A stretch of DNA of 37,987 nt from a virus. Of the stretch, positions 1 through 37,987 are shown piece by piece. The notes beneath the pieces are model-generated. The model was not told the DNA's origin and did not search any database. It saw nothing but the letters and a program-made list of their open reading frames with translations. Location: the IMG/VR virus record IMGVR_UViG_3300032435_000033, positions 1-37,987 of that record; one strand, written 5' to 3'. A program made the position numbers and the translations under genes. Positions within the stretch are counted from its first letter, which is position 1; every line of letters begins with the position of its first letter.

Positions 1-127
1 ATTGGCAACAAGTATCTGGTCCGCTGGTGGGTAGCAAAAAACATGACGGACCACGACACGCCAAATCTTGAGCGCATTCAGCCGCATACAAGGCAGACCA
101 GCTGGTACAACATTTATCTGCATTGCG
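1..127. repeat. Terminal overlap, copy 1 (identical to 37861..37987)
   Basis: Base-for-base identity read directly: attggcaacaagtatctggtccgctgg...catttatctgcattgcg at both ends. Confidence 0.95.
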
Positions 128-2854: not shown

Positions 2855-3279
2855 TTATGCTACCGCGCTACATCCGCCACCGTGACGCACCCGGCTACCT
2901 CGGAATGGATAAGAACAGATTTTATAAAGAGGTGCGACCCTATCTGATCGTAATCCCGATCGGCAGACAGGGAGTGGCATACGACCGGCTTGACCTTGAT
3001 GCGTGGGCGGACCAATATAAGAGCTGCAACGGACGTCCCGCAAAACTAACAGGAGAAATGCAATGGGGCGAAAAAAGACGCCAGGACTCGTCAAACGAGG
3101 CGACATGTGGCACATCGACAAATCGATCAGAGGGCACGGACGACTTTGCGAAAGCACTGGAACTGATTCGCTCGCAGCAGCCGAAGAATACCTGCGGCAA
3201 CGCATCGAGGAGATCCGGGCGCGCCGGTTCCAGACGCGCCCGGTCCGACTCTGGCAAGACGCAGCGGCAAAGTACCTGA
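2851..3279 (+). CDS. xis: Excisionase/AlpA-type HTH protein (Xis candidate) with a long C-terminal extension overlapping int
   Basis: The N-terminal ~60 aa (LPRYIRHRDAPGYLGMDKNRFYKEVRPYLIVIPIGRQGVAYDRLDLDAWADQYK) look like excisionase-family HTH. It lies directly upstream of the integrase. The last 217 nt overlap int in another frame. Confidence 0.55.
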   Translation: MIMLPRYIRHRDAPGYLGMDKNRFYKEVRPYLIVIPIGRQGVAYDRLDLDAWADQYKSCNGRPAKLTGEMQWGEKRRQDSSNEATCGTSTNRSEGTDDFAKALELIRSQQPKNTCGNASRRSGRAGSRRARSDSGKTQRQST

Positions 3280-4208
3280 TCGACAACCAGGCGCGGGCAT
3301 CGATCGTTGATGACTCGTATCATCTGGAGGATTTAAACCCATACATTGGGCAGCTGAGTTTGCAGCAGGTGCACGATGACACGCTGGCCAGCTTCGTTAA
3401 AGCGCGTCGGGAAAAGGGTAGAAAAACAAAGTCGATCAATCTGGCGCTGGGTTTAGTACGCAAAATATTGAATCTTGCCAGCAGATCATGGCGCCATCCG
3501 GACAGCGGTTTAACGTGGCTGGAAGTGCCGCCAATGATCACCATGCAGCAGCCGCCTAAAGGTATGAGCGATGCGGCAAAGGCGTACCCACTGGACTGGG
3601 ATGAGCAGGACAGGTTGATTATGACCCAACCGGCACATCTTGCCAGAATGACGCTGTACAAAGTCAACACAGGATGCCGGCAGGCGGAGGTTTGCGGGCT
3701 GCGTTGGAAGTGGGAGTGGCATACGGATAATGATGAGCTGAAGGGACGCGTGTTTATCATTCCTGGCGACGAGGAGCTGACGCCCGGCAAAGGAGTTAAG
3801 AACCGACAGGATCGACTGGTGGTACTTAACGACATTGCCAAGTCAGTGGTCGACTCGCAGCGTTCAGTGCATCCGACTCACGTGTTCAGCTATAACGACA
3901 AGCCAGTGAGCAGGATGAACAACAGCAGCTGGAGTAAAGCGTGGATCCGCGCCGGCCTGCCGACTGATGAGAAGCACCTGAAAGGCGTACACAATTTAAG
4001 GCACACATTCGGTCGCCGGTTACGGGCTGCAGGTGTTGCTTTGGAGACAAGGAAGGTGCTGTTGGGTCACAGCAATGGCGACATCACGTCGCATTATTCT
4101 GCCCCGGAAATACAGGAGTTACTCAGCGCTGTGAGCAAGCTTTGCGAAAGGAAATCACGCAAAAATCACGCACTGAATATTGTAAGGCTGAAGGTGGTGA
4201 ACGGATAA
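3063..4208 (+). CDS. int: Tyrosine recombinase / phage integrase
   Basis: The C-terminal catalytic region has HNLRHTFGRRL and LLGHSNGDITSHY (R..HxxR..Y pattern). It is adjacent to a tRNA-derived attP core. Confidence 0.9.
   Translation: MGRKKTPGLVKRGDMWHIDKSIRGHGRLCESTGTDSLAAAEEYLRQRIEEIRARRFQTRPVRLWQDAAAKYLIDNQARASIVDDSYHLEDLNPYIGQLSLQQVHDDTLASFVKARREKGRKTKSINLALGLVRKILNLASRSWRHPDSGLTWLEVPPMITMQQPPKGMSDAAKAYPLDWDEQDRLIMTQPAHLARMTLYKVNTGCRQAEVCGLRWKWEWHTDNDELKGRVFIIPGDEELTPGKGVKNRQDRLVVLNDIAKSVVDSQRSVHPTHVFSYNDKPVSRMNNSSWSKAWIRAGLPTDEKHLKGVHNLRHTFGRRLRAAGVALETRKVLLGHSNGDITSHYSAPEIQELLSAVSKLCERKSRKNHALNIVRLKVVNG
4152..4173 (+). repeat. Tandem 11-mers AAATCACGCAA/AAATCACGCAC; candidate integrase arm-type sites (left arm)
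   Basis: Read directly. The same 11-mer recurs at 4379-4400 on the other side of the tRNA-like core. Confidence 0.45.
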
Positions 4209-4241
4209 GACTTCTAAGCCACTGTTATTACTTACTTTATC

Positions 4242-4291
4242 TGGTGCACCCGGCATGATTCGAACATGCGACCCCCTAGTTCGTAGATAGG
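4242..4291 (-). other. attP core: 3' portion of a tRNA-Arg(ACG)-like gene (anticodon loop to CCA), not a full tRNA
   Basis: The minus strand reads CCTAT-CTACGAA-CTAGG-GGGTC-GCATG-TTCGAAT-CATGC-CGGGTGC-A-CCA. This gives an anticodon loop with ACG, variable loop, T arm, 3' acceptor strand, discriminator and CCA. No matching 5' acceptor strand or D arm lies upstream. Confidence 0.7.
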
Positions 4292-4378: not shown

Positions 4379-4400
4379 AAATCACGCAAAATCTACGCAA
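4379..4400 (+). repeat. Tandem 11-mers AAATCACGCAA/AATCTACGCAA; candidate integrase arm-type sites (right arm)
   Basis: Read directly. The orientation matches the 4152-4173 pair. Confidence 0.45.
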
Positions 4401-4465: not shown

Positions 4466-4918
4466 TTACACCCCCAGCGCCGCCCGCTCATCTCTGCCCC
4501 ATTGACGGACCGACTCAACGAACTCGCCAAAAATAGTCATCTCCTGCATCTCCGATTCATCCGGCAGATAAAGGCCCGTTGCAGCCCCGACCCCGATACG
4601 AGCAAAATACATCTCATCATCAATGCTGTACGCAGCGCGGATCTGGTCAATCATGCGCTGCGCGATCAATCTGCAAGATGGGCTGGCCGCCTTTATAGAT
4701 GACCTCAAACTGCTCGTAAGAGTGACAACACTGACGCTTGTGGCTATCTCAGCGGGCTGATCAGCTGAGAGATTGACTCCGTCGGGCAGCGATATGTAAG
4801 TCACTCCATCAACCGTCGCCAGCTCTGTGCCTTGCCGCTCTCCGTTGATGGTTGGCAGATTGATCTCAACTGTACGCTGGCTGTCGATAAATTTCTGGTA
4901 ACTGTAAATAGACGGCAT
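4466..4918 (-). CDS. Hypothetical protein (150 aa) immediately downstream of the DGR RT
   Basis: ATG 4918 has GGAG 9 nt upstream. The first 53 nt overlap the RT 3' end. It is the last gene of the late operon before attP. Confidence 0.55.
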   Translation of the reverse strand: MPSIYSYQKFIDSQRTVEINLPTINGERQGTELATVDGVTYISLPDGVNLSADQPAEIATSVSVVTLTSSLRSSIKAASPSCRLIAQRMIDQIRAAYSIDDEMYFARIGVGAATGLYLPDESEMQEMTIFGEFVESVRQWGRDERAALGV

Positions 4919-5870
4919 AATGATTGCTCCGGAGATTATTAATCAATGATCTTAAAGTATGAGTGTTTTTGGCGTGACCTAGTATTGATATCACGCTATC
5001 AAGTTTGGATTTTTTAGCTGCTTTGGTGAAATTGTACAAACTGTGTTTCCGGATAAATCGCTTGCCGGCCCAGGTGCGGTAGCCGACAAAGTTGATGCCG
5101 CGGCTCACAGGAGCAATGGTGTGCTTAGAGAACTCAAGGTTGAGACGAGACGCAATGAAGTGCTCGATCTGATCCTTGTAATCAACGCACTGCTGGCGGC
5201 TCAGGCCGAACAGCACGAAATCATCAACGTAACGACAGTAAAAATCCACCTTGAGCTCGCGTTTGATAAAATGATCCAACGGATTAAGATAGATCAGCGC
5301 ATAGACTTGGCTGAGCAGATTCCCGATAGGAATTCCCACCGGCTCACCGTATTCGGCAAACGTCATCATCAGATCGACAAAGCGGCGGTCCTTGATCACT
5401 CGCTCCAGTTGGCCGCGTAGGACCACCCTATCAATCCGATAAAAGAATTTACGGATATCCAGCTTGATTGCGCAGCTGTCCCGTGGACATGCTTGCAGGG
5501 CTTCCTGGGCGTAATCAGCCGCCTTATGCGTGCCCTTTCCTTTGCGGCAGGCAAAGGACTGGTCGATAAACGTCTTGTCAAACAGCGGGTAGACCAAGCG
5601 GTAAATAGCATGCTGAACAACCGTGTCCCTGAATGCCGGCGCGAAGATCCGGCGCGGCTTGGGCTCATACACCATAAAGCTGTAGTAAGGCTTGATCGTG
5701 TAGGTGCCTTCGCTTAATTCGTCGTGCAGAGCGCTGAGATTCGATGCCAGTGTCCTCTCAAAATTGAAGCAGGCTCTGGTTGCGCGCTTGCCTCGGCGCG
5801 CATCCAAGTAGGCCCGATACAGCGCCAGGGGTGTAAAGGCCCGCTCATATAAATGTCCGTGACGTTTCAT
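4866..5870 (-). CDS. DGR-type reverse transcriptase
   Basis: It carries the RT motifs PKPRRIFAP, GIPIGNLLSQ (the [I/L]GxxxSQ signature of DGR RTs) and YVDDFVLF. Its size (334 aa) and its position 130 nt downstream of TR also fit. Confidence 0.92.
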   Translation of the reverse strand: MKRHGHLYERAFTPLALYRAYLDARRGKRATRACFNFERTLASNLSALHDELSEGTYTIKPYYSFMVYEPKPRRIFAPAFRDTVVQHAIYRLVYPLFDKTFIDQSFACRKGKGTHKAADYAQEALQACPRDSCAIKLDIRKFFYRIDRVVLRGQLERVIKDRRFVDLMMTFAEYGEPVGIPIGNLLSQVYALIYLNPLDHFIKRELKVDFYCRYVDDFVLFGLSRQQCVDYKDQIEHFIASRLNLEFSKHTIAPVSRGINFVGYRTWAGKRFIRKHSLYNFTKAAKKSKLDSVISILGHAKNTHTLRSLINNLRSNHYAVYLQLPEIYRQPAYS

Positions 5871-6000
5871 TGCGCCTGACCTTCGAGACCGGCATCGGCC
5901 CTACCAGAAAGGCGAATGCACGCCGATTTCGCAGCCAGCAGCTGCCGGAAAACATCTCCCTTGGCTCCACCATCATCCTTCGATGCGTTTGGTAAATCCG
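5871..6000 (-). ncRNA. TR-RT spacer, expected to be part of the DGR template RNA
   Basis: This is a 130-nt non-coding gap between TR and the RT start codon. In characterised DGRs this spacer is co-transcribed with TR and takes part in priming. No structure was verified here. Confidence 0.4.
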
Positions 6001-6118
6001 AGTCCGCGCGAAACCCCACGTTGTTGTTCGAGTTCGTCCGCGAGTTGTTCAGGTTCAGCGCCCAGAGCCCGGCATTCGCGCCATTGTTCCAGTTGCCGCC
6101 CGATAGAGGGCACATATT
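6001..6118 (-). repeat. DGR template repeat (TR)
   Basis: A 118-nt near-copy of 6556-6673 (constant offset 555). Read in the VR frame it holds 12 AAY codons. It abuts and overlaps the avd stop codon (6117-6119). Confidence 0.9.
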
Positions 6119-6527
6119 AAGATGTCTCCCGTTTATCAGGGCCATGCTCGACAGCCATCCAGCCGCCAATCATGCGCCCTAATTCATCGACCATCAGCGA
6201 GATGGTCATGTATCTGTTTTCGGCCAATCGCTCAGGCTGCACGTCACTGGTTTTGCCGTCCCTGAACTGGAAATAGCCCAGCTCAAAGGCCAGGCGCAGA
6301 AACATTCGCAGCTGCTCATGCTTGATATCCAAGTTCGTGAGCGTCGTCTTTTTGTGATAGCGCTTTTGTGCCTCGACGATGTGCCCATACACGTCATAAG
6401 CGGTGCGCCGGATATCTTGAGCCAGTGCGTACTTTTCGTGCCTAGGAAAATGGTTCAAATACACATTCATCAGCTTTGCGAACTCAGTGAATTTTTTGTC
6501 CAGTTTTGCTTCGGAGTGAAGGGCCAT
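6117..6527 (-). CDS. avd: Accessory variability determinant (four-helix-bundle Avd family)
   Basis: A 136-aa protein. ...NHFPRHEKYALAQDIRRTAYDVYGHIVEAQKRY... matches the four-helix-bundle (23S rRNA IVS protein-like) family pattern. It lies between the target gene and TR, as in BPP-1. Confidence 0.85.
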   Translation of the reverse strand: MALHSEAKLDKKFTEFAKLMNVYLNHFPRHEKYALAQDIRRTAYDVYGHIVEAQKRYHKKTTLTNLDIKHEQLRMFLRLAFELGYFQFRDGKTSDVQPERLAENRYMTISLMVDELGRMIGGWMAVEHGPDKRETS

Positions 6528-6544
6528 CGCTATCGCTCAACCCC

Positions 6545-8161
6545 TCAGAGATACAAGGCCGCGCGAAACCCCACGGAGCTGTTCGAGTGCGCCCGCGAGG
6601 CGTTCAGGCTCAGCGCCCAGAGCCCGGCATTCGCGCCAGTGCTCCAGCCGCCGCCCGAGCGAGGGCACATATCGGCCGTGCTGTAATCTGATAAATAGTC
6701 GTTCCCGAACGCATTCGAGCCGCCCGAGAGTAGGGGTACGCCAGCGCCGGTCATTTTCCAGGCGGTTCCGCTGGTCGCTGCGCTGAGCACTTGCCCTGCA
6801 TTGCCGTACGTCAACACGCGATCGCTGAAGTTCAGCGCGTACCCGGCGAACGCGCTCATTAGCCCGAGATCGTCATACAGCGCCGCGTGCCCGGTTGCTC
6901 CCCACAAGTCGGTTGCCAGGGCTGAGCCGCTGGTCAGGTCCTTCATCGAGGCCGTAGTTTTCAGCACATAGAATTTGTCTGCGGTTGTTGAGCCGTCCAT
7001 CGTTAAGCCGGGCGTGATTTCCCACATCGCGCCGTTTAAATCTGCGATGCCGCTATTTTGGCCGTTATGCGTTGTTTTTGCCAGCGTGCTTCCAGAGCCT
7101 GTTTTGCACGCGTTGAGATAGCCATCGCCGATAAAGGACAAGGCGCCGTCGTTCTGGTCGCCAAGCGCGTTGTTATTGCAGCCCTTGGGGAAGTTGTTTG
7201 TTGCGTGATACCAAGCGCAATACGTCGCGTTGGTGCTAGCCTGCGCGTGAGCTAGTGACAGCAGCGCCAAGGCTTTGAAAATAAACAAGCTGCTACAGAA
7301 AAAGCCCACTCCGCGCGTTTTTGCAGACACAATGGCGCCGTGGTGTGCGTTTGCTGGAGCACCCGTCAGCCCCGAGAACGGATTATGCGCCGCATTTGAG
7401 GACAGCGGGTTGCCCAGTTTCAAGCTTGATGCTGTGCCTGCGTTATTGCTGCAAAGATATTTATCAACAAACACGCCGCTCTTGACCACTCCAGCATCGT
7501 AAAACGCCCTGTGGAGCGCGTAGCCCTGCTCTGCTGCCTCGCTAACTGAAACGAAGGAAGCGTGCGGCTTAATGCTGACGATATTAACCGCAAACCCATT
7601 CGCACCGGTGCCGTATTTATAATAAAACGCGGGCACCCAGCACATCACTGACCCGTCTGAAAACTGGTAGTTGCCATAATTGTCGTGCATTGAGTCGCTG
7701 TAGCCTGACATTACCGCCATGCCCGCCGGGAGGGTTTCAGGGCATATCCCAACACCAAAGCCTGCCGCGCCTGGCGTGCCTATATTGTTGAGGACCGCGT
7801 ACCACCCGGGATCAATCGTGCCGTCAGCGCGGGAGATCGGGACATTCGCGCCCTTGGGCGTAGTTGAGTAACCCCCGCCGTAGACGATCATCGCGGCATC
7901 GTTTTTGGCGGCGACAGCATCAACTGCTGCGCTCTGAGCCAGCGCGGCTTGCGCGGCAGCCAGGCCCGCTTGAGTGGATCCGTTGGTTTCGGCAAGCCCT
8001 GCCTGAGCGGTTGCAATACCGGCTTGCGTAGTGGCGTCAACTGCCGCCGCAACAGCGGTGAGTTTTGACGCAGTGAAGGTATCATTAACCTCAACAACAG
8101 TAGTTAATAATGCGTCGGTATTACTGATTAAATCAGCCAGTTGTTCAGCAGTTGTGGGCAT
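6545..8161 (-). CDS. DGR target: tail fibre / receptor-binding protein with C-terminal variable (C-type-lectin/FGE-like) domain
   Basis: The N-terminus is an Ala-rich coiled-coil-like region. The C-terminus is ...CPRSGGGWSTGANAGLWALSLNASRAHSNSSVGFRAALYL, and VR ends 8 nt (6548-6555) upstream of the stop codon (6545-6547). It is the last structural gene of the tail module. Confidence 0.85.
   Translation of the reverse strand: MPTTAEQLADLISNTDALLTTVVEVNDTFTASKLTAVAAAVDATTQAGIATAQAGLAETNGSTQAGLAAAQAALAQSAAVDAVAAKNDAAMIVYGGGYSTTPKGANVPISRADGTIDPGWYAVLNNIGTPGAAGFGVGICPETLPAGMAVMSGYSDSMHDNYGNYQFSDGSVMCWVPAFYYKYGTGANGFAVNIVSIKPHASFVSVSEAAEQGYALHRAFYDAGVVKSGVFVDKYLCSNNAGTASSLKLGNPLSSNAAHNPFSGLTGAPANAHHGAIVSAKTRGVGFFCSSLFIFKALALLSLAHAQASTNATYCAWYHATNNFPKGCNNNALGDQNDGALSFIGDGYLNACKTGSGSTLAKTTHNGQNSGIADLNGAMWEITPGLTMDGSTTADKFYVLKTTASMKDLTSGSALATDLWGATGHAALYDDLGLMSAFAGYALNFSDRVLTYGNAGQVLSAATSGTAWKMTGAGVPLLSGGSNAFGNDYLSDYSTADMCPRSGGGWSTGANAGLWALSLNASRAHSNSSVGFRAALYL
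6556..6673 (-). repeat. DGR variable repeat (VR), last ~39 codons of the tail-fibre gene
   Basis: It aligns to TR without gaps, with 16 mismatches. Fifteen are at positions where TR has A on the coding strand. Confidence 0.9.
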
Positions 8162-37777: not shown

Positions 37778-37987
37778 TGCGCAAACTCATACTGAAAATA
37801 ATAAATCGCTACCTGCCCGCTGCGCTTAGCTGGGCCAGTACCACCAGTCCCGATCTGGTAATTGGCAACAAGTATCTGGTCCGCTGGTGGGTAGCAAAAA
37901 ACATGACGGACCACGACACGCCAAATCTTGAGCGCATTCAGCCGCATACAAGGCAGACCAGCTGGTACAACATTTATCTGCATTGCG
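37777..37987 (+). CDS. N-terminal part of a junction-spanning cupin-like hypothetical protein (full gene 37777 -> 441 after circular closure, 174 aa)
   Basis: ATG 37777 overlaps the TGA of the upstream ParB-like gene (cTGATGc). The frame is continuous with ORF 43..441 once 37861 is equated with 1. Confidence 0.6.
   Translation, partial: MRKLILKIINRYLPAALSWASTTSPDLVIGNKYLVRWWVAKNMTDHDTPNLERIQPHTRQTSWYNIYLHC
37861..37987. repeat. Terminal overlap, copy 2 (identical to 1..127)
   Basis: Same 127 nt as the window start. It lies inside a CDS, so it is a circular-closure/assembly overlap rather than a biological repeat. Confidence 0.95.

What the first reader, a model, noticed from the sequence alone, without database searches (positions are those of the whole stretch)
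6001..6673. TR/VR pair: 15 of 16 mismatches fall on TR adenines; TR encodes 12 AAY codons
TR 6001-6118 and VR 6556-6673 align without gaps at a constant offset of 555, which is divisible by 3. On the + strand, the differences at TR positions 6003, 6021, 6022, 6024, 6034, 6037, 6045, 6046, 6054, 6084, 6087, 6093, 6094, 6104 and 6118 are all T in TR, meaning A on the coding strand. In VR these become G, C or A. By my count, 15 of about 28 TR adenines differ, against 1 of about 90 non-adenine positions. In the VR reading frame TR reads NMCPLSGGNWNNGANAGLWALNLNNSRTNSNNNVGFRAD, and VR reads DMCPRSGGGWSTGANAGLWALSLNASRAHSNSSVGFRAA. AAY codons are the classic DGR design, because adenine substitutions reach many amino acids and never produce a stop codon.
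Basis: seen in the sequence. Interest (0 to 1): 0.8.

Follow-up and report, generated by a model that had tools for sequence, protein, structure and literature searches.

The report
Phage tail-fibre hypermutation cassette (DGR)
This is a complete and apparently recently active diversity-generating retroelement in a temperate phage, which rewrites the tip of a tail-fibre protein by copying a template through an error-prone reverse transcriptase; it is a clear example of a well-known system, not a new one.

Summary
TR 6001-6118 and VR 6556-6673 align without gaps at offset 555. There are 16 mismatches: 15 of 28 TR adenines (coding = minus strand) and 1 of 90 other bases (Fisher p = 1.5e-10). The TR has 12 AAY codons.

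The interpretation also holds. On the minus strand lie a 538-aa tail protein with the VR at its C-terminus, a bAvd gene, the TR, a 130-nt spacer and a DGR-type reverse transcriptase. This matches the Bordetella phage BPP-1 layout, where the VR-TR offset is 556.

The target is predicted to have the C-type-lectin fold of solved DGR variable proteins. The RNA around the TR shows strongly covarying counterparts of the BPP-1 priming and stop duplexes.

Across 46 related elements, 614 of 1149 TR adenines are substituted, against 36 of 3934 other bases.

An independent assembly of the same phage is identical over 2,299 flanking bases. It differs at 10 VR positions, all opposite TR adenines, which points to recent diversification.

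Three refinements apply:
- Mismatches 6003 and 6118 are boundary positions, not clear mutagenesis products.
- The offset being divisible by 3 is incidental.
- The hairpin after the VR is weak in this copy.

Verdict: a new member of a known kind.

The parts
6545..8161 (-). DGR target gene: 538-aa tail (receptor-binding-type) protein. N-terminal long helices (res. 5-91), conserved body 124-538 with predicted C-type-lectin fold, VR at residues 497-535.
   Evidence: ORF, translation. Last gene of the tail module after the tape measure. PHROG tail-protein hits. AF2 model pLDDT 73.5. Foldseek top hits are TaqVP 5vf4 (E 2.4e-12), Mtd and FGE.
6556..6673 (-). Variable region (VR), the last 39 codons but three of the target gene.
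   Evidence: Homolog columns encoded by TR AAY codons have 2.9-3.4 bits entropy against a near-invariant scaffold. A second natural allele differs at 10 TR-A sites only.
6545..6574 (-). IMH-like 3' end of the VR: a GC-rich stretch identical to the TR (6559-6574), then GGCC/TTGTATCTCTGA, which diverges from the TR tail (IMH versus IMH*).
   Evidence: fixed GGCC vs GGAC in all 46 pairs. Same logic in BPP-1.
6520..6544 (-). Candidate DNA hairpin after the VR stop. Core GAGC-GATA-GCGA (6527-6538) overlaps the avd start codon. The outer stem is only 3 bp in this copy.
   Evidence: Conserved core in most relatives and perfect GC hairpins with GATA-type loops in others. Own-arm complementarity 4.23 vs 3.54 bp when permuted, 0/5000. 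The window copy does not fold better than shuffles. BPP-1 has an 8-bp/GAAA hairpin at the same place.
6117..6527 (-). avd: accessory variability determinant, 136 aa.
   Evidence: Pfam bAvd PF22296, E 6.7e-18, above cut-off.
6120..6130 (-). avd-side strand (GGGAGACAUCU) of the long-range avd:Sp RNA duplex, counterpart of the BPP-1 'cPRT Stop' duplex. It abuts the 5' end of the TR.
   Evidence: 11 bp with Sp 5947-5957. 5 of 11 pairs show compensatory changes and 98.7% of cells are paired across 21 loci. BPP-1 element described in bioRxiv 10.1101/2023.10.23.563531.
6001..6118 (-). Template repeat (TR): non-coding, 28 adenines, 12 AAY codons in the VR frame. Starts at the avd stop codon.
5998..6002 (-). 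[quoted passage not shown]
   Evidence: Pairs with Sp CCAAG 5960-5964. 2 of 4 pairs covary (GC to UA/AU) and 100% of cells are paired. The position relative to the TR/VR homology end mirrors BPP-1 G117. The initiation site itself is inferred.
5871..6000 (-). Spacer (Sp) RNA between TR and RT. Contains stem-loop 5970-5992 (tip CAUC-GAAG-GAUG 5974-5985), primer strand 5960-5964, a 2-nt linker, the Sp strand of the avd:Sp duplex 5947-5957, stem-loop 5931-5946 followed by GCGAAAUC (5925-5932), and 3' helices 5873-5914.
   Evidence: Alignments A3/A4 and covariation: 97.9% paired vs 37-50% in slid controls, and 19/33 pairs with changes on both sides. Coordinates. No Rfam family matches.
4866..5870 (-). 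DGR reverse transcriptase, 334 aa.
   Evidence: Pfam RVT_1. Best PDB match is Bordetella bRT 8ub7, E 4.5e-53. 37% identity to Brt, with I182-G-N-L-L-S-Q188, R73 (= bRT R74), D138 and Y-V-D216-D217. The motif and the role of R74/I181 are from PMC7826257.
4466..4918 (-). Conserved 150-aa ORF overlapping the RT 3' end. It is linked to the tail-fibre gene and is not part of the DGR.
   Evidence: Homologs in 48/50 DGR loci, but also directly after the target gene in DGR-less relatives. The Roseovarius homolog carries DUF4376 and tail-fibre PHROGs.
4237..4286 (.). Phage attachment core (context): identical to the 3' part of a host tRNA-Arg(ACG). The integrase gene lies at 3063-4208(+).
   Evidence: The integrated copy on a 76-kb contig diverges from the window at 4286 on one side and 4237 on the other. 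tRNA-Arg at the junction. Integrase PHROG hit.

Best explanation
The interval is the core of a diversity-generating retroelement (DGR) carried by a ~37.9-kb temperate siphovirus-like phage of an uncultured gammaproteobacterium. All parts are on the minus strand.

Proposed mechanism:
1. A transcript spanning the 3' end of avd, the TR (6001-6118) and the spacer (5871-6000) folds so that the spacer pairs with the TR tail (primer duplex) and with the end of avd (stop duplex).
2. The RT (4866-5870), together with Avd (6117-6527), self-primes from the spacer and copies the TR. It inserts random nucleotides opposite adenines and copies the other bases faithfully.
3. The cDNA replaces the VR (6556-6673) at the C-terminus of the tail protein (6545-8161). 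Direction is set by the GC-rich identical stretch and the diverged tails (IMH-like in the VR, IMH*-like in the TR).
4. Twelve AAY codons on a C-type-lectin-fold surface can give about 1e14 receptor-binding variants without ever making a stop codon, which allows host-range switching.

Shown here: the repeat pair and its adenine bias, the gene content and order, the RT motifs, the predicted fold, the covarying RNA structure, and natural VR alleles differing only at TR-adenine sites.

Inferred from BPP-1: self-priming, the exact cDNA start and stop, the need for Avd, retrohoming, and a receptor-binding role.
For: - Adenine-specific mismatches: 15/28 vs 1/90, p = 1.5e-10.
- AAY design with no reachable stop codon; 1.0e14 protein variants.
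- bAvd.
- RT closest to Bordetella bRT (E 4.5e-53), with IGxxxSQ, R73 and YVDD.
- Same order and spacing as BPP-1: VR-TR offset 555 vs 556, spacer ~130 vs 144 nt.
- Target model matches the solved DGR variable proteins TaqVP and Mtd, and FGE.
- Tail-module position.
- 46 related TRs: 614/1149 A vs 36/3934 non-A substituted.
- Hypervariable protein columns coincide with the AAY codons.
- DGR RNA structure: 97.9% of cells paired, 19/33 pairs with compensatory changes, covariation score 0.467 vs 0.05-0.08 in slid controls. It maps onto the published BPP-1 elements. Both ends of the TR/VR homology coincide with those duplexes.
- Independent allele L094: 10 differences, all at TR-A sites (10/16 vs 0/58, p = 1.1e-8), and 0 differences in 2,299 flanking nt.
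Against: - No biochemical or read-level evidence of ongoing mutagenesis.
- Eight other contigs from several, possibly related, samples carry exactly the window's VR allele, so diversification is not frequent at consensus level.
- The second allele is known only for the 3' 74 nt of the VR, from one short contig.
- One non-adenine TR/VR mismatch exists (6105).
- The post-VR hairpin is weak in this copy.
- The target has no Pfam hit, and its receptor-binding role is inferred from position and fold only.
- The AF2 model has moderate confidence (pLDDT 73.5, lower in parts of the VR).
Confidence: 0.95

Rival explanations
1. A DGR that is structurally complete but now inactive (a relic). On this view the TR/VR differences and the second allele record past activity only.
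For: The same VR allele appears on 8 contigs from several samples. There is one non-adenine mismatch. The hairpin after the VR is weak. Relatives show DGR decay scars, so loss is common in this family.
Against: The RT, Avd and all RNA elements are intact and match family consensus. Two alleles differ at 10 adenine sites while 2,299 flanking nt are identical, so the switch happened before any neutral change accumulated. TR/VR non-adenine divergence is minimal (1/90).
Confidence: 0.1
2. The two VR alleles arose by recombination or selection among pre-existing phage variants, not by reverse-transcriptase mutagenesis in this lineage.
For: Only consensus assemblies were compared. The second allele comes from a different sequencing run.
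Against: All 10 differences fall on TR-adenine sites and none on 58 other VR sites or 2,299 flanking sites. Recombination with a diverged relative would bring flanking differences. The closest other relatives are at most 85% identical in protein.
Confidence: 0.03
3. An ordinary dispersed duplication of a gene 3' end whose divergence looks adenine-biased only by chance or composition.
For: None beyond the existence of a repeat.
Against: Fisher p = 1.5e-10 in the window. The same bias appears in 46 independent relatives. DGR RT and Avd lie adjacent. The A-rich copy is always the non-coding one.
Confidence: 0.01

Closest known systems
Bordetella phage BPP-1 DGR (mtd-avd-TR-brt), the prototype
   Same: - Same gene order on one strand, with the VR as the last ~40 codons of a tail-fibre protein.
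- VR-TR offset 556 vs 555; the TR starts at the avd stop; spacer of 144 vs ~130 nt before the RT.
- RT 37% identical with the same catalytic and mutagenesis-linked residues.
- bAvd present.
- GC-rich identical stretch, then diverged tails at the 3' end.
- Counterparts of the TR:Sp primer duplex, the 11-bp avd:Sp stop duplex with a 2-nt linker, and a stem-loop followed by GAA(A).
- Temperate phage integrating at the 3' end of a tRNA gene.
   Different: - The target is not detectably similar to Mtd in sequence (11-12% identity in structural alignment). It is larger (538 vs 381 aa) and has a long N-terminal helical region.
- The spacer sequence differs, and the nucleotide at the predicted priming position is G or A within CCAAG rather than the A56 context.
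- The hairpin after the VR has a GATA loop with an imperfect stem that overlaps the avd start codon, rather than a perfect 8-bp/GAAA hairpin.
- Lambda-like head genes with a siphovirus-type tail module, whereas BPP-1 is a podovirus (the latter from my own knowledge).
- Gammaproteobacterial host.
TaqVP, Thermus aquaticus DGR variable protein (PDB 5vf4)
   Same: Best structural match of the predicted target (Foldseek E 2.4e-12, probability 1.0, TM 0.54-0.57 on the target). Weak sequence echo in the VR-bearing C-terminus. C-type-lectin fold with the VR at the C-terminal end.
   Different: Only 17-18% identity. TaqVP is a cellular, not phage-tail, protein (my own knowledge). The window protein has an added N-terminal helical domain.
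Pseudomonas phage Bise (OR683401) RT / four-helix-bundle cassette
   Same: Closest RT in cultured phages (59% identity over 99% of the query), with an adjacent four-helix-bundle (Avd-like) gene and a similar genome size.
   Different: Its upstream tail gene is not a homolog of this target (no hit). It has a baseplate-J type tail module, so a different virion architecture. I did not analyse TR/VR in Bise.
Uncharacterised family of ~450-aa phage/prophage tail proteins (>2,600 homologs; >=555 loci in IMG/VR), e.g. in Spongiibacter marinus, Zhongshania, Propionivibrio, Roseovarius prophages
   Same: 55-85% identity over residues 124-538. Same VR-avd-TR-RT-ORF150 layout with spacing 542-611 nt, the same adenine bias and the same spacer RNA.
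   Different: The window protein has a longer N-terminus (538 vs ~449 aa). No copy closer than 85% exists apart from the same phage. About 16 relatives lack a TR, and some keep only avd/RT fragments.

Membership tests
Diversity-generating retroelement (DGR) | Two near-identical repeats (TR and VR) whose differences fall almost only on TR adenines | tested here: met
   15/28 A vs 1/90 non-A, p = 1.5e-10. In the family, 614/1149 vs 36/3934.
Diversity-generating retroelement (DGR) | Reverse transcriptase of the DGR clade with the signature motif [I/V/L]GxxxSQ in place of QGxxxSP | tested here: met
   IGNLLSQ at residues 182-188, YVDD, and R73 equivalent to bRT R74. Best PDB hit is bRT 8ub7, E 4.5e-53. 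Motif definition from PMC7826257.
Diversity-generating retroelement (DGR) | VR lies at the 3' end of a protein-coding target gene; TR is non-coding and next to the RT | tested here: met
   The VR covers residues 497-535 of 538. The TR lies between the avd stop and the RT. The ORF read through the TR (5867-6169) is a by-product of TR/VR similarity.
Diversity-generating retroelement (DGR) | Accessory protein (Avd or HRDC type) | tested here: met
   Pfam bAvd PF22296, 65.6 bits against a cut-off of 40.
Diversity-generating retroelement (DGR) | IMH at the VR 3' end versus IMH* at the TR 3' end (a GC-rich identical segment followed by diverged sequence that sets direction) | tested here: met
   16-nt identical GC-rich stretch, then the fixed GGCC/GGAC difference and diverged tails in all 46 pairs. 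Same pattern in BPP-1. Its function in homing is not testable here.
Diversity-generating retroelement (DGR) | DNA hairpin/cruciform just downstream of the VR (BPP-1-type target recognition) | tested here: inconclusive
   Supported at family level, but the window copy has only a 3-bp outer stem plus a GC-GATA-GC tip and folds no better than shuffles.
Diversity-generating retroelement (DGR) | DGR RNA architecture: TR:Sp primer duplex, avd:Sp stop duplex, stem-loop after the TR | tested here: met
   Covariation on 21 loci: 97.9% paired, 19/33 pairs with compensatory changes, 0/500 shuffles reach the observed value. Elements defined.
Diversity-generating retroelement (DGR) | Variable protein displays the VR on a C-type-lectin (or Ig) fold | tested here: met
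   Predicted structure (pLDDT 73.5) matches TaqVP, Mtd, FGE and TvpA. This is a prediction, not a solved structure.
Diversity-generating retroelement (DGR) | Actual adenine-directed diversification of the VR | tested here: met
   Two natural alleles differ at 10/16 TR-A sites, 0/58 other VR sites and 0/2,299 flanking sites. This is indirect; RT dependence was not tested.
Mtd (Bordetella major tropism determinant) sequence family | Detectable sequence homology to Mtd | tested here: not met
   No Pfam hit. No Mtd hit by phmmer against the PDB. 11-12% identity in the structural alignment. Same fold class, but not the same sequence family.
Rfam-described RNA families | Spacer/TR RNA matches a curated covariance model | tested here: not met
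   No match at gathering thresholds anywhere in the window.

The most novel reading that the evidence does not exclude
This widespread DGR lineage of Pseudomonadota phages may use two features not described for BPP-1. First, the post-VR DNA element with a conserved GAGC-GATA-GCGA core (possible tandem G.A pairs) overlaps the avd start codon, which could couple target recognition to avd expression. Second, priming may start from a nucleotide within an invariant CCAAG motif, placing the first templated base on the fixed GGAC adenine. Either would be a mechanistic variant of DGR initiation or targeting.
Probability: 0.15. Interest if true: 0.5.

Novelty: new member of a known kind. Interest (0 to 1): 0.3.

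Why it matters
For the scan, this is a true positive: reading the raw sequence was enough to recognise a DGR correctly.

Biologically it adds three things:
- A complete, well-delimited DGR in a temperate phage with no close cultured relative.
- A natural pair of VR alleles in otherwise identical cassettes, which is unusually direct evidence of recent activity.
- A large, unannotated family of C-type-lectin-fold tail proteins. In this family the RNA elements recently defined by cryo-EM for the Bordetella DGR are independently supported by covariation. This backs the claim that the self-priming mechanism is conserved across distant DGRs.

None of this changes what is known about how DGRs work.

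Tried and rejected
- Megablast of the cassette and of 24 kb of the phage against GenBank phages and E. coli genomes gave no match.
- Scaffold-pattern scans of IMG/VR and the JGI metagenome collection gave 0 hits, although the pattern hits the TR and VR in the window. Those collections do not hold this element, so no further alleles could be harvested that way.
- Rfam and tRNA scans of the window found nothing.
- The post-VR region of the window alone is not more stable than shuffles.
- Column-wise covariation of that hairpin was abandoned because the internal-loop register shifts between loci. I replaced it with a partner-permutation test.
- A second VR in the window: none found.
- The 150-aa ORF overlapping the RT end as a fourth DGR component: rejected, because homologs sit directly after the target gene in relatives that have no DGR.
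- The 100-aa ORF through the TR (5867-6169) as a real gene: rejected. Its only family hits are to VR-bearing tail proteins and an RT-neighbour family.
- 'Offset divisible by 3' as a meaningful feature: rejected.
- The first translation of the host-flank gene was out of frame and was fixed.
Full report
**1. Observation**

An independent repeat search finds one 122-nt direct pair at 5996-6117 and 6551-6672 with spacing 555. Over 6001-6118 versus 6556-6673 the alignment has no gaps and 16 mismatches. All fifteen are T on the + strand of the upstream copy, which is A on the minus (coding) strand. The sixteenth is at 6105.

The TR holds 28 such adenines and 90 other bases, so the counts are 15/28 against 1/90 (one-sided Fisher p = 1.5e-10). 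Both translations and the count of 12 AAY codons are reproduced exactly. All TR adenines but one lie in codon positions 1 or 2. No adenine substitution can create a stop codon. The TR can encode about 1e14 protein variants (6e15 if the two boundary codons are counted). No further VR-like copy exists in the window.

**2. Genes around the repeat**

Everything relevant is on the minus strand, in this order:
- a 538-aa ORF (6545-8161) whose residues 497-535 are the VR;
- a 136-aa ORF (6117-6527) that matches Pfam bAvd above its cut-off;
- the TR, which begins at the avd stop codon;
- about 130 nt of non-coding spacer;
- a 334-aa reverse transcriptase (4866-5870).

The RT's best match among solved structures is the Bordetella phage DGR RT (8ub7, E 4.5e-53), far ahead of group II intron and retron RTs. 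Aligned to BPP-1 Brt it is 37% identical. It carries IGNLLSQ, an instance of the signature DGR motif [I/V/L]GxxxSQ. It also carries the equivalents of bRT R74 and I181, the two residues shown to promote adenine mutagenesis, plus the catalytic D138 and YVDD.

The annotated BPP-1 locus has the same order and nearly the same spacing. Its VR-TR offset is 556 against 555 here. Its TR follows the avd stop directly, and 144 nt of spacer precede brt.

The window as a whole is a temperate tailed phage. It encodes integrase, CI-like repressor, primase-helicase, large terminase, portal, protease, major head protein and tape measure. Three tail genes and then the target gene close the tail module.

**3. 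The target protein**

The target has no Pfam hit. It belongs to a very large unannotated family: more than 2,600 hits, mostly ~449 aa, and at least 555 loci in IMG/VR.

An AlphaFold2 model built with 53 homologs (pLDDT 73.5, pTM 0.71) has long N-terminal helices and a mixed body. Its best structural matches are solved DGR variable proteins: TaqVP 5vf4 (E 2.4e-12, probability 1.0), then Bordetella Mtd. Formylglycine-generating enzymes and TvpA follow. Together these indicate the C-type-lectin fold that DGRs typically diversify.

Across 120 homologs, the columns this TR encodes with AAY have 2.9-3.4 bits of entropy. They are filled with N, S, G, D, Y, T, A and H. The scaffold columns (W506, G513, W515, R523, G531, R533 and others) are invariant or nearly so.

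**4. Family-wide test of the adenine rule**

I detected TR/VR pairs de novo in the fetched loci. There were 46 distinct TRs, with spacing of 542-611 nt. Of 1149 TR adenines, 614 are substituted, against 36 of 3934 other bases. Loci in named genomes (Spongiibacter marinus, Roseovarius nitratireducens) and in MAGs (Propionivibrio, Nitrosomonadales) behave the same way.

Only 39% of spacings are divisible by 3, so that detail of the finding is incidental.

**5. Boundaries**

- Position 6118 is the first base of the homology and lies within the avd stop codon.
- Position 6003 (TR GGAC, VR GGCC) is the same A-to-C difference in every one of the 46 pairs. The encoded Ala is kept in 118 of 120 proteins. 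It also stays C in the second allele of this phage.

Just 3' of 6003 the two copies diverge. BPP-1 behaves the same way. Its TR and VR are identical through the GC-rich stretch up to the known initiation nucleotide TR G117. The non-adenine differences (positions 120, 124, 126-128) fall in the TR tail that pairs with the spacer. So 6003 and what follows is the IMH/IMH*-type distinction, not mutagenesis.

**6. The RNA**

Published work on BPP-1 shows the following (PMC6182149; bioRxiv 10.1101/2023.10.23.563531):
- cDNA synthesis is primed from the 2'-OH of spacer A56, which is paired in a TR:Sp duplex.
- An 11-bp avd:Sp duplex, a short stem-loop and unpaired adenosines form a stop element.
- A stem-loop just after the TR binds Avd.

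The window has counterparts of each (coordinates):
- TR tail CUCGG (5998-6002) pairs with Sp CCAAG (5960-5964).
- After a 2-nt linker, Sp AGAUGUUUUCC (5947-5957) pairs with GGGAGACAUCU (6120-6130) at the very end of avd, giving 11 bp.
- A stem-loop lies at 5970-5992 with tip CAUC-GAAG-GAUG.
- A second stem-loop (5931-5946) is followed by GCGAAAUC. BPP-1 has GCUUCGGC-GAA at the matching place.

I aligned avd 3' end + TR + spacer from 21 distinct loci and counted pairs for this structure:
- 97.9% of cells form standard pairs, against 37-50% when partners are slid by 1-3 columns.
- 19 of 33 pairs keep pairing through changes on both sides.
- The covariation score is 0.467, against 0.05-0.08 in the slid controls.
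- No shuffle of 500 reaches the observed values.

Both ends of the TR/VR homology coincide with these duplexes. The 5' end (6117/6118) abuts the stop duplex, and the 3' end (6001-6003) abuts the primer duplex. This is what is expected if the duplexes delimit the cDNA. The exact priming nucleotide is inferred, not shown.

**7. The DNA element after the VR**

BPP-1 has a perfect 8-bp hairpin with a GAAA loop two bases after the mtd stop. In this family, some loci have perfect GC-rich hairpins with GATA, GACA or GAAA loops at the same place. Most have a conserved GAGC-GATA-GCGA core flanked by short arms. Each locus's arms are more complementary to each other than to arms from other loci: 4.23 vs 3.54 bp, with 0 of 5000 permutations reaching the observed value.

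The window's copy (6520-6544) has only a 3-bp outer stem and does not fold better than shuffled sequence. I therefore score this feature as inconclusive for this element.

**8. Direct evidence of diversification**

The same phage occurs on at least 11 contigs. Most carry the window's VR allele. One JGI copy differs at 6 of 13,920 positions, including one in the TR (6101) and one just upstream of the VR (6682).

A short contig from a different run (Logan SRR18682720, locus L094) starts inside the VR and covers window 6629 down to 4257. It differs from the window at 10 positions. All 10 are in the VR, and all are opposite TR adenines. That is 10 of 16 adenine sites against 0 of 58 other VR sites (p = 1.1e-8). 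There is no difference in the remaining 2,299 nt of avd, TR, spacer, RT and the next ORF (p = 4.7e-16).

The encoded tips read SLNASRAHSNSS and TLFHSRTNSSTT, from the TR-encoded NLNNSRTNSNNN. This is what a recent round of mutagenic homing would produce. It is hard to explain by recombination with a diverged relative.

**9. Context**

- The window's first and last 127 nt are identical, which is the signature of a circular assembly. The unique length is therefore 37,860 nt.
- On a 76-kb contig the phage is integrated into a tRNA-Arg(ACG) gene. The att core is window ~4237-4286.
- A flanking cysteine desulfurase is about 80% identical to proteins of Cellvibrio, Pseudohongiellaceae, Halopseudomonas and Marinimicrobium. 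The host is therefore an uncultured gammaproteobacterium.
- No close relative exists among GenBank phages. The nearest RT is in Pseudomonas phage Bise (59% identity), which has a different target and tail.

**10. Verdict**

The element is a new member of a well-known kind. It has good comparative support for a BPP-1-like mechanism and indirect but specific evidence of recent activity. Interest is modest for a specialist. The case does not make a new question testable, although the family is a convenient natural data set for studying DGR RNA structure.

Noticed in passing
window 1-127 and 37861-37987: The first and last 127 nt are identical, the signature of a circular assembly (k-mer overlap). 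The unique genome length is 37,860 nt. Other assemblies of the same phage are rotated copies of 37,977-37,987 nt.
   Followed up: partly
window 4237-4286; L090 6180-6256; L099: The phage is found integrated on a 76-kb contig (ENA ERZ27247432 k141_1147263) in a tRNA-Arg(ACG) gene, next to Suf/Fe-S cluster genes. The att core equals the 3' part of the tRNA. Host-flank proteins point to an uncultured gammaproteobacterium.
   Followed up: yes
window 6101 and 6682 (also 9998, 13089, 15503, 15515); L007/L093/L096: The copy from JGI sample 3300007522 differs at 6 of 13,920 positions. One is a TR polymorphism (coding-strand A instead of G at 6101, which adds one more A-to-G TR/VR mismatch there). One is a Ser494Arg change 9 nt upstream of the VR, outside the TR homology.
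   Followed up: partly
window 4466-4918 (-); L039, L041, L049-L051, L066: The 150-aa ORF overlapping the RT stop is conserved in 48 of 50 DGR loci. It also follows the target gene directly in relatives with no DGR. The Roseovarius homolog has DUF4376 and tail-fibre PHROG hits. It looks like a tail-fibre-associated gene, with the avd-TR-RT block lying between it and the fibre gene.
   Followed up: yes
L008, L022, L054, L057, L060, L067: Several relatives keep only fragments of avd and/or the RT after the target gene and have no TR. These look like deletion scars of lost DGRs. About 16 of the fetched loci with enough flank have no TR within 4 kb.
   Followed up: partly
window 5867-6169 (-): An ORF reads through the TR in the VR frame and is called as an 82-aa gene in public annotations of this phage. 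Its only family hits are to VR-bearing tail proteins and an RT-neighbour family, so it is most likely an artefact of TR/VR similarity.
   Followed up: partly
L094 (Logan SRR18682720_2641770), start of contig = window 6629: The only short contig of this phage begins inside the VR. This is what assemblers do when reads disagree there, and it hints at VR heterogeneity within that sample.
   Followed up: no
window 4152-4172 and 4379-4399: Direct repeats AAATCACGCAAAA(A)TC(T)ACGCA flank the att core on either side, at the integrase gene end and before ORF150. They are possible integrase arm-type binding sites.
   Followed up: no
target residues 131-423; Campylobacter phages CP220, CPt10, CP21 and others: Large Campylobacter myoviruses encode a protein similar (27-28% identity) to the body of the target but not to its VR-bearing C-terminus. 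The scaffold is therefore also used without a DGR in distant phages.
   Followed up: no
window 6105 / 6660: The single non-adenine mismatch turns the TR codon CTA (Leu) into VR CGC (Arg), next to an adenine substitution. It could be a later G-to-T change in the TR (ancestral CGA) or a point mutation in the VR. The second allele does not cover this position.
   Followed up: no
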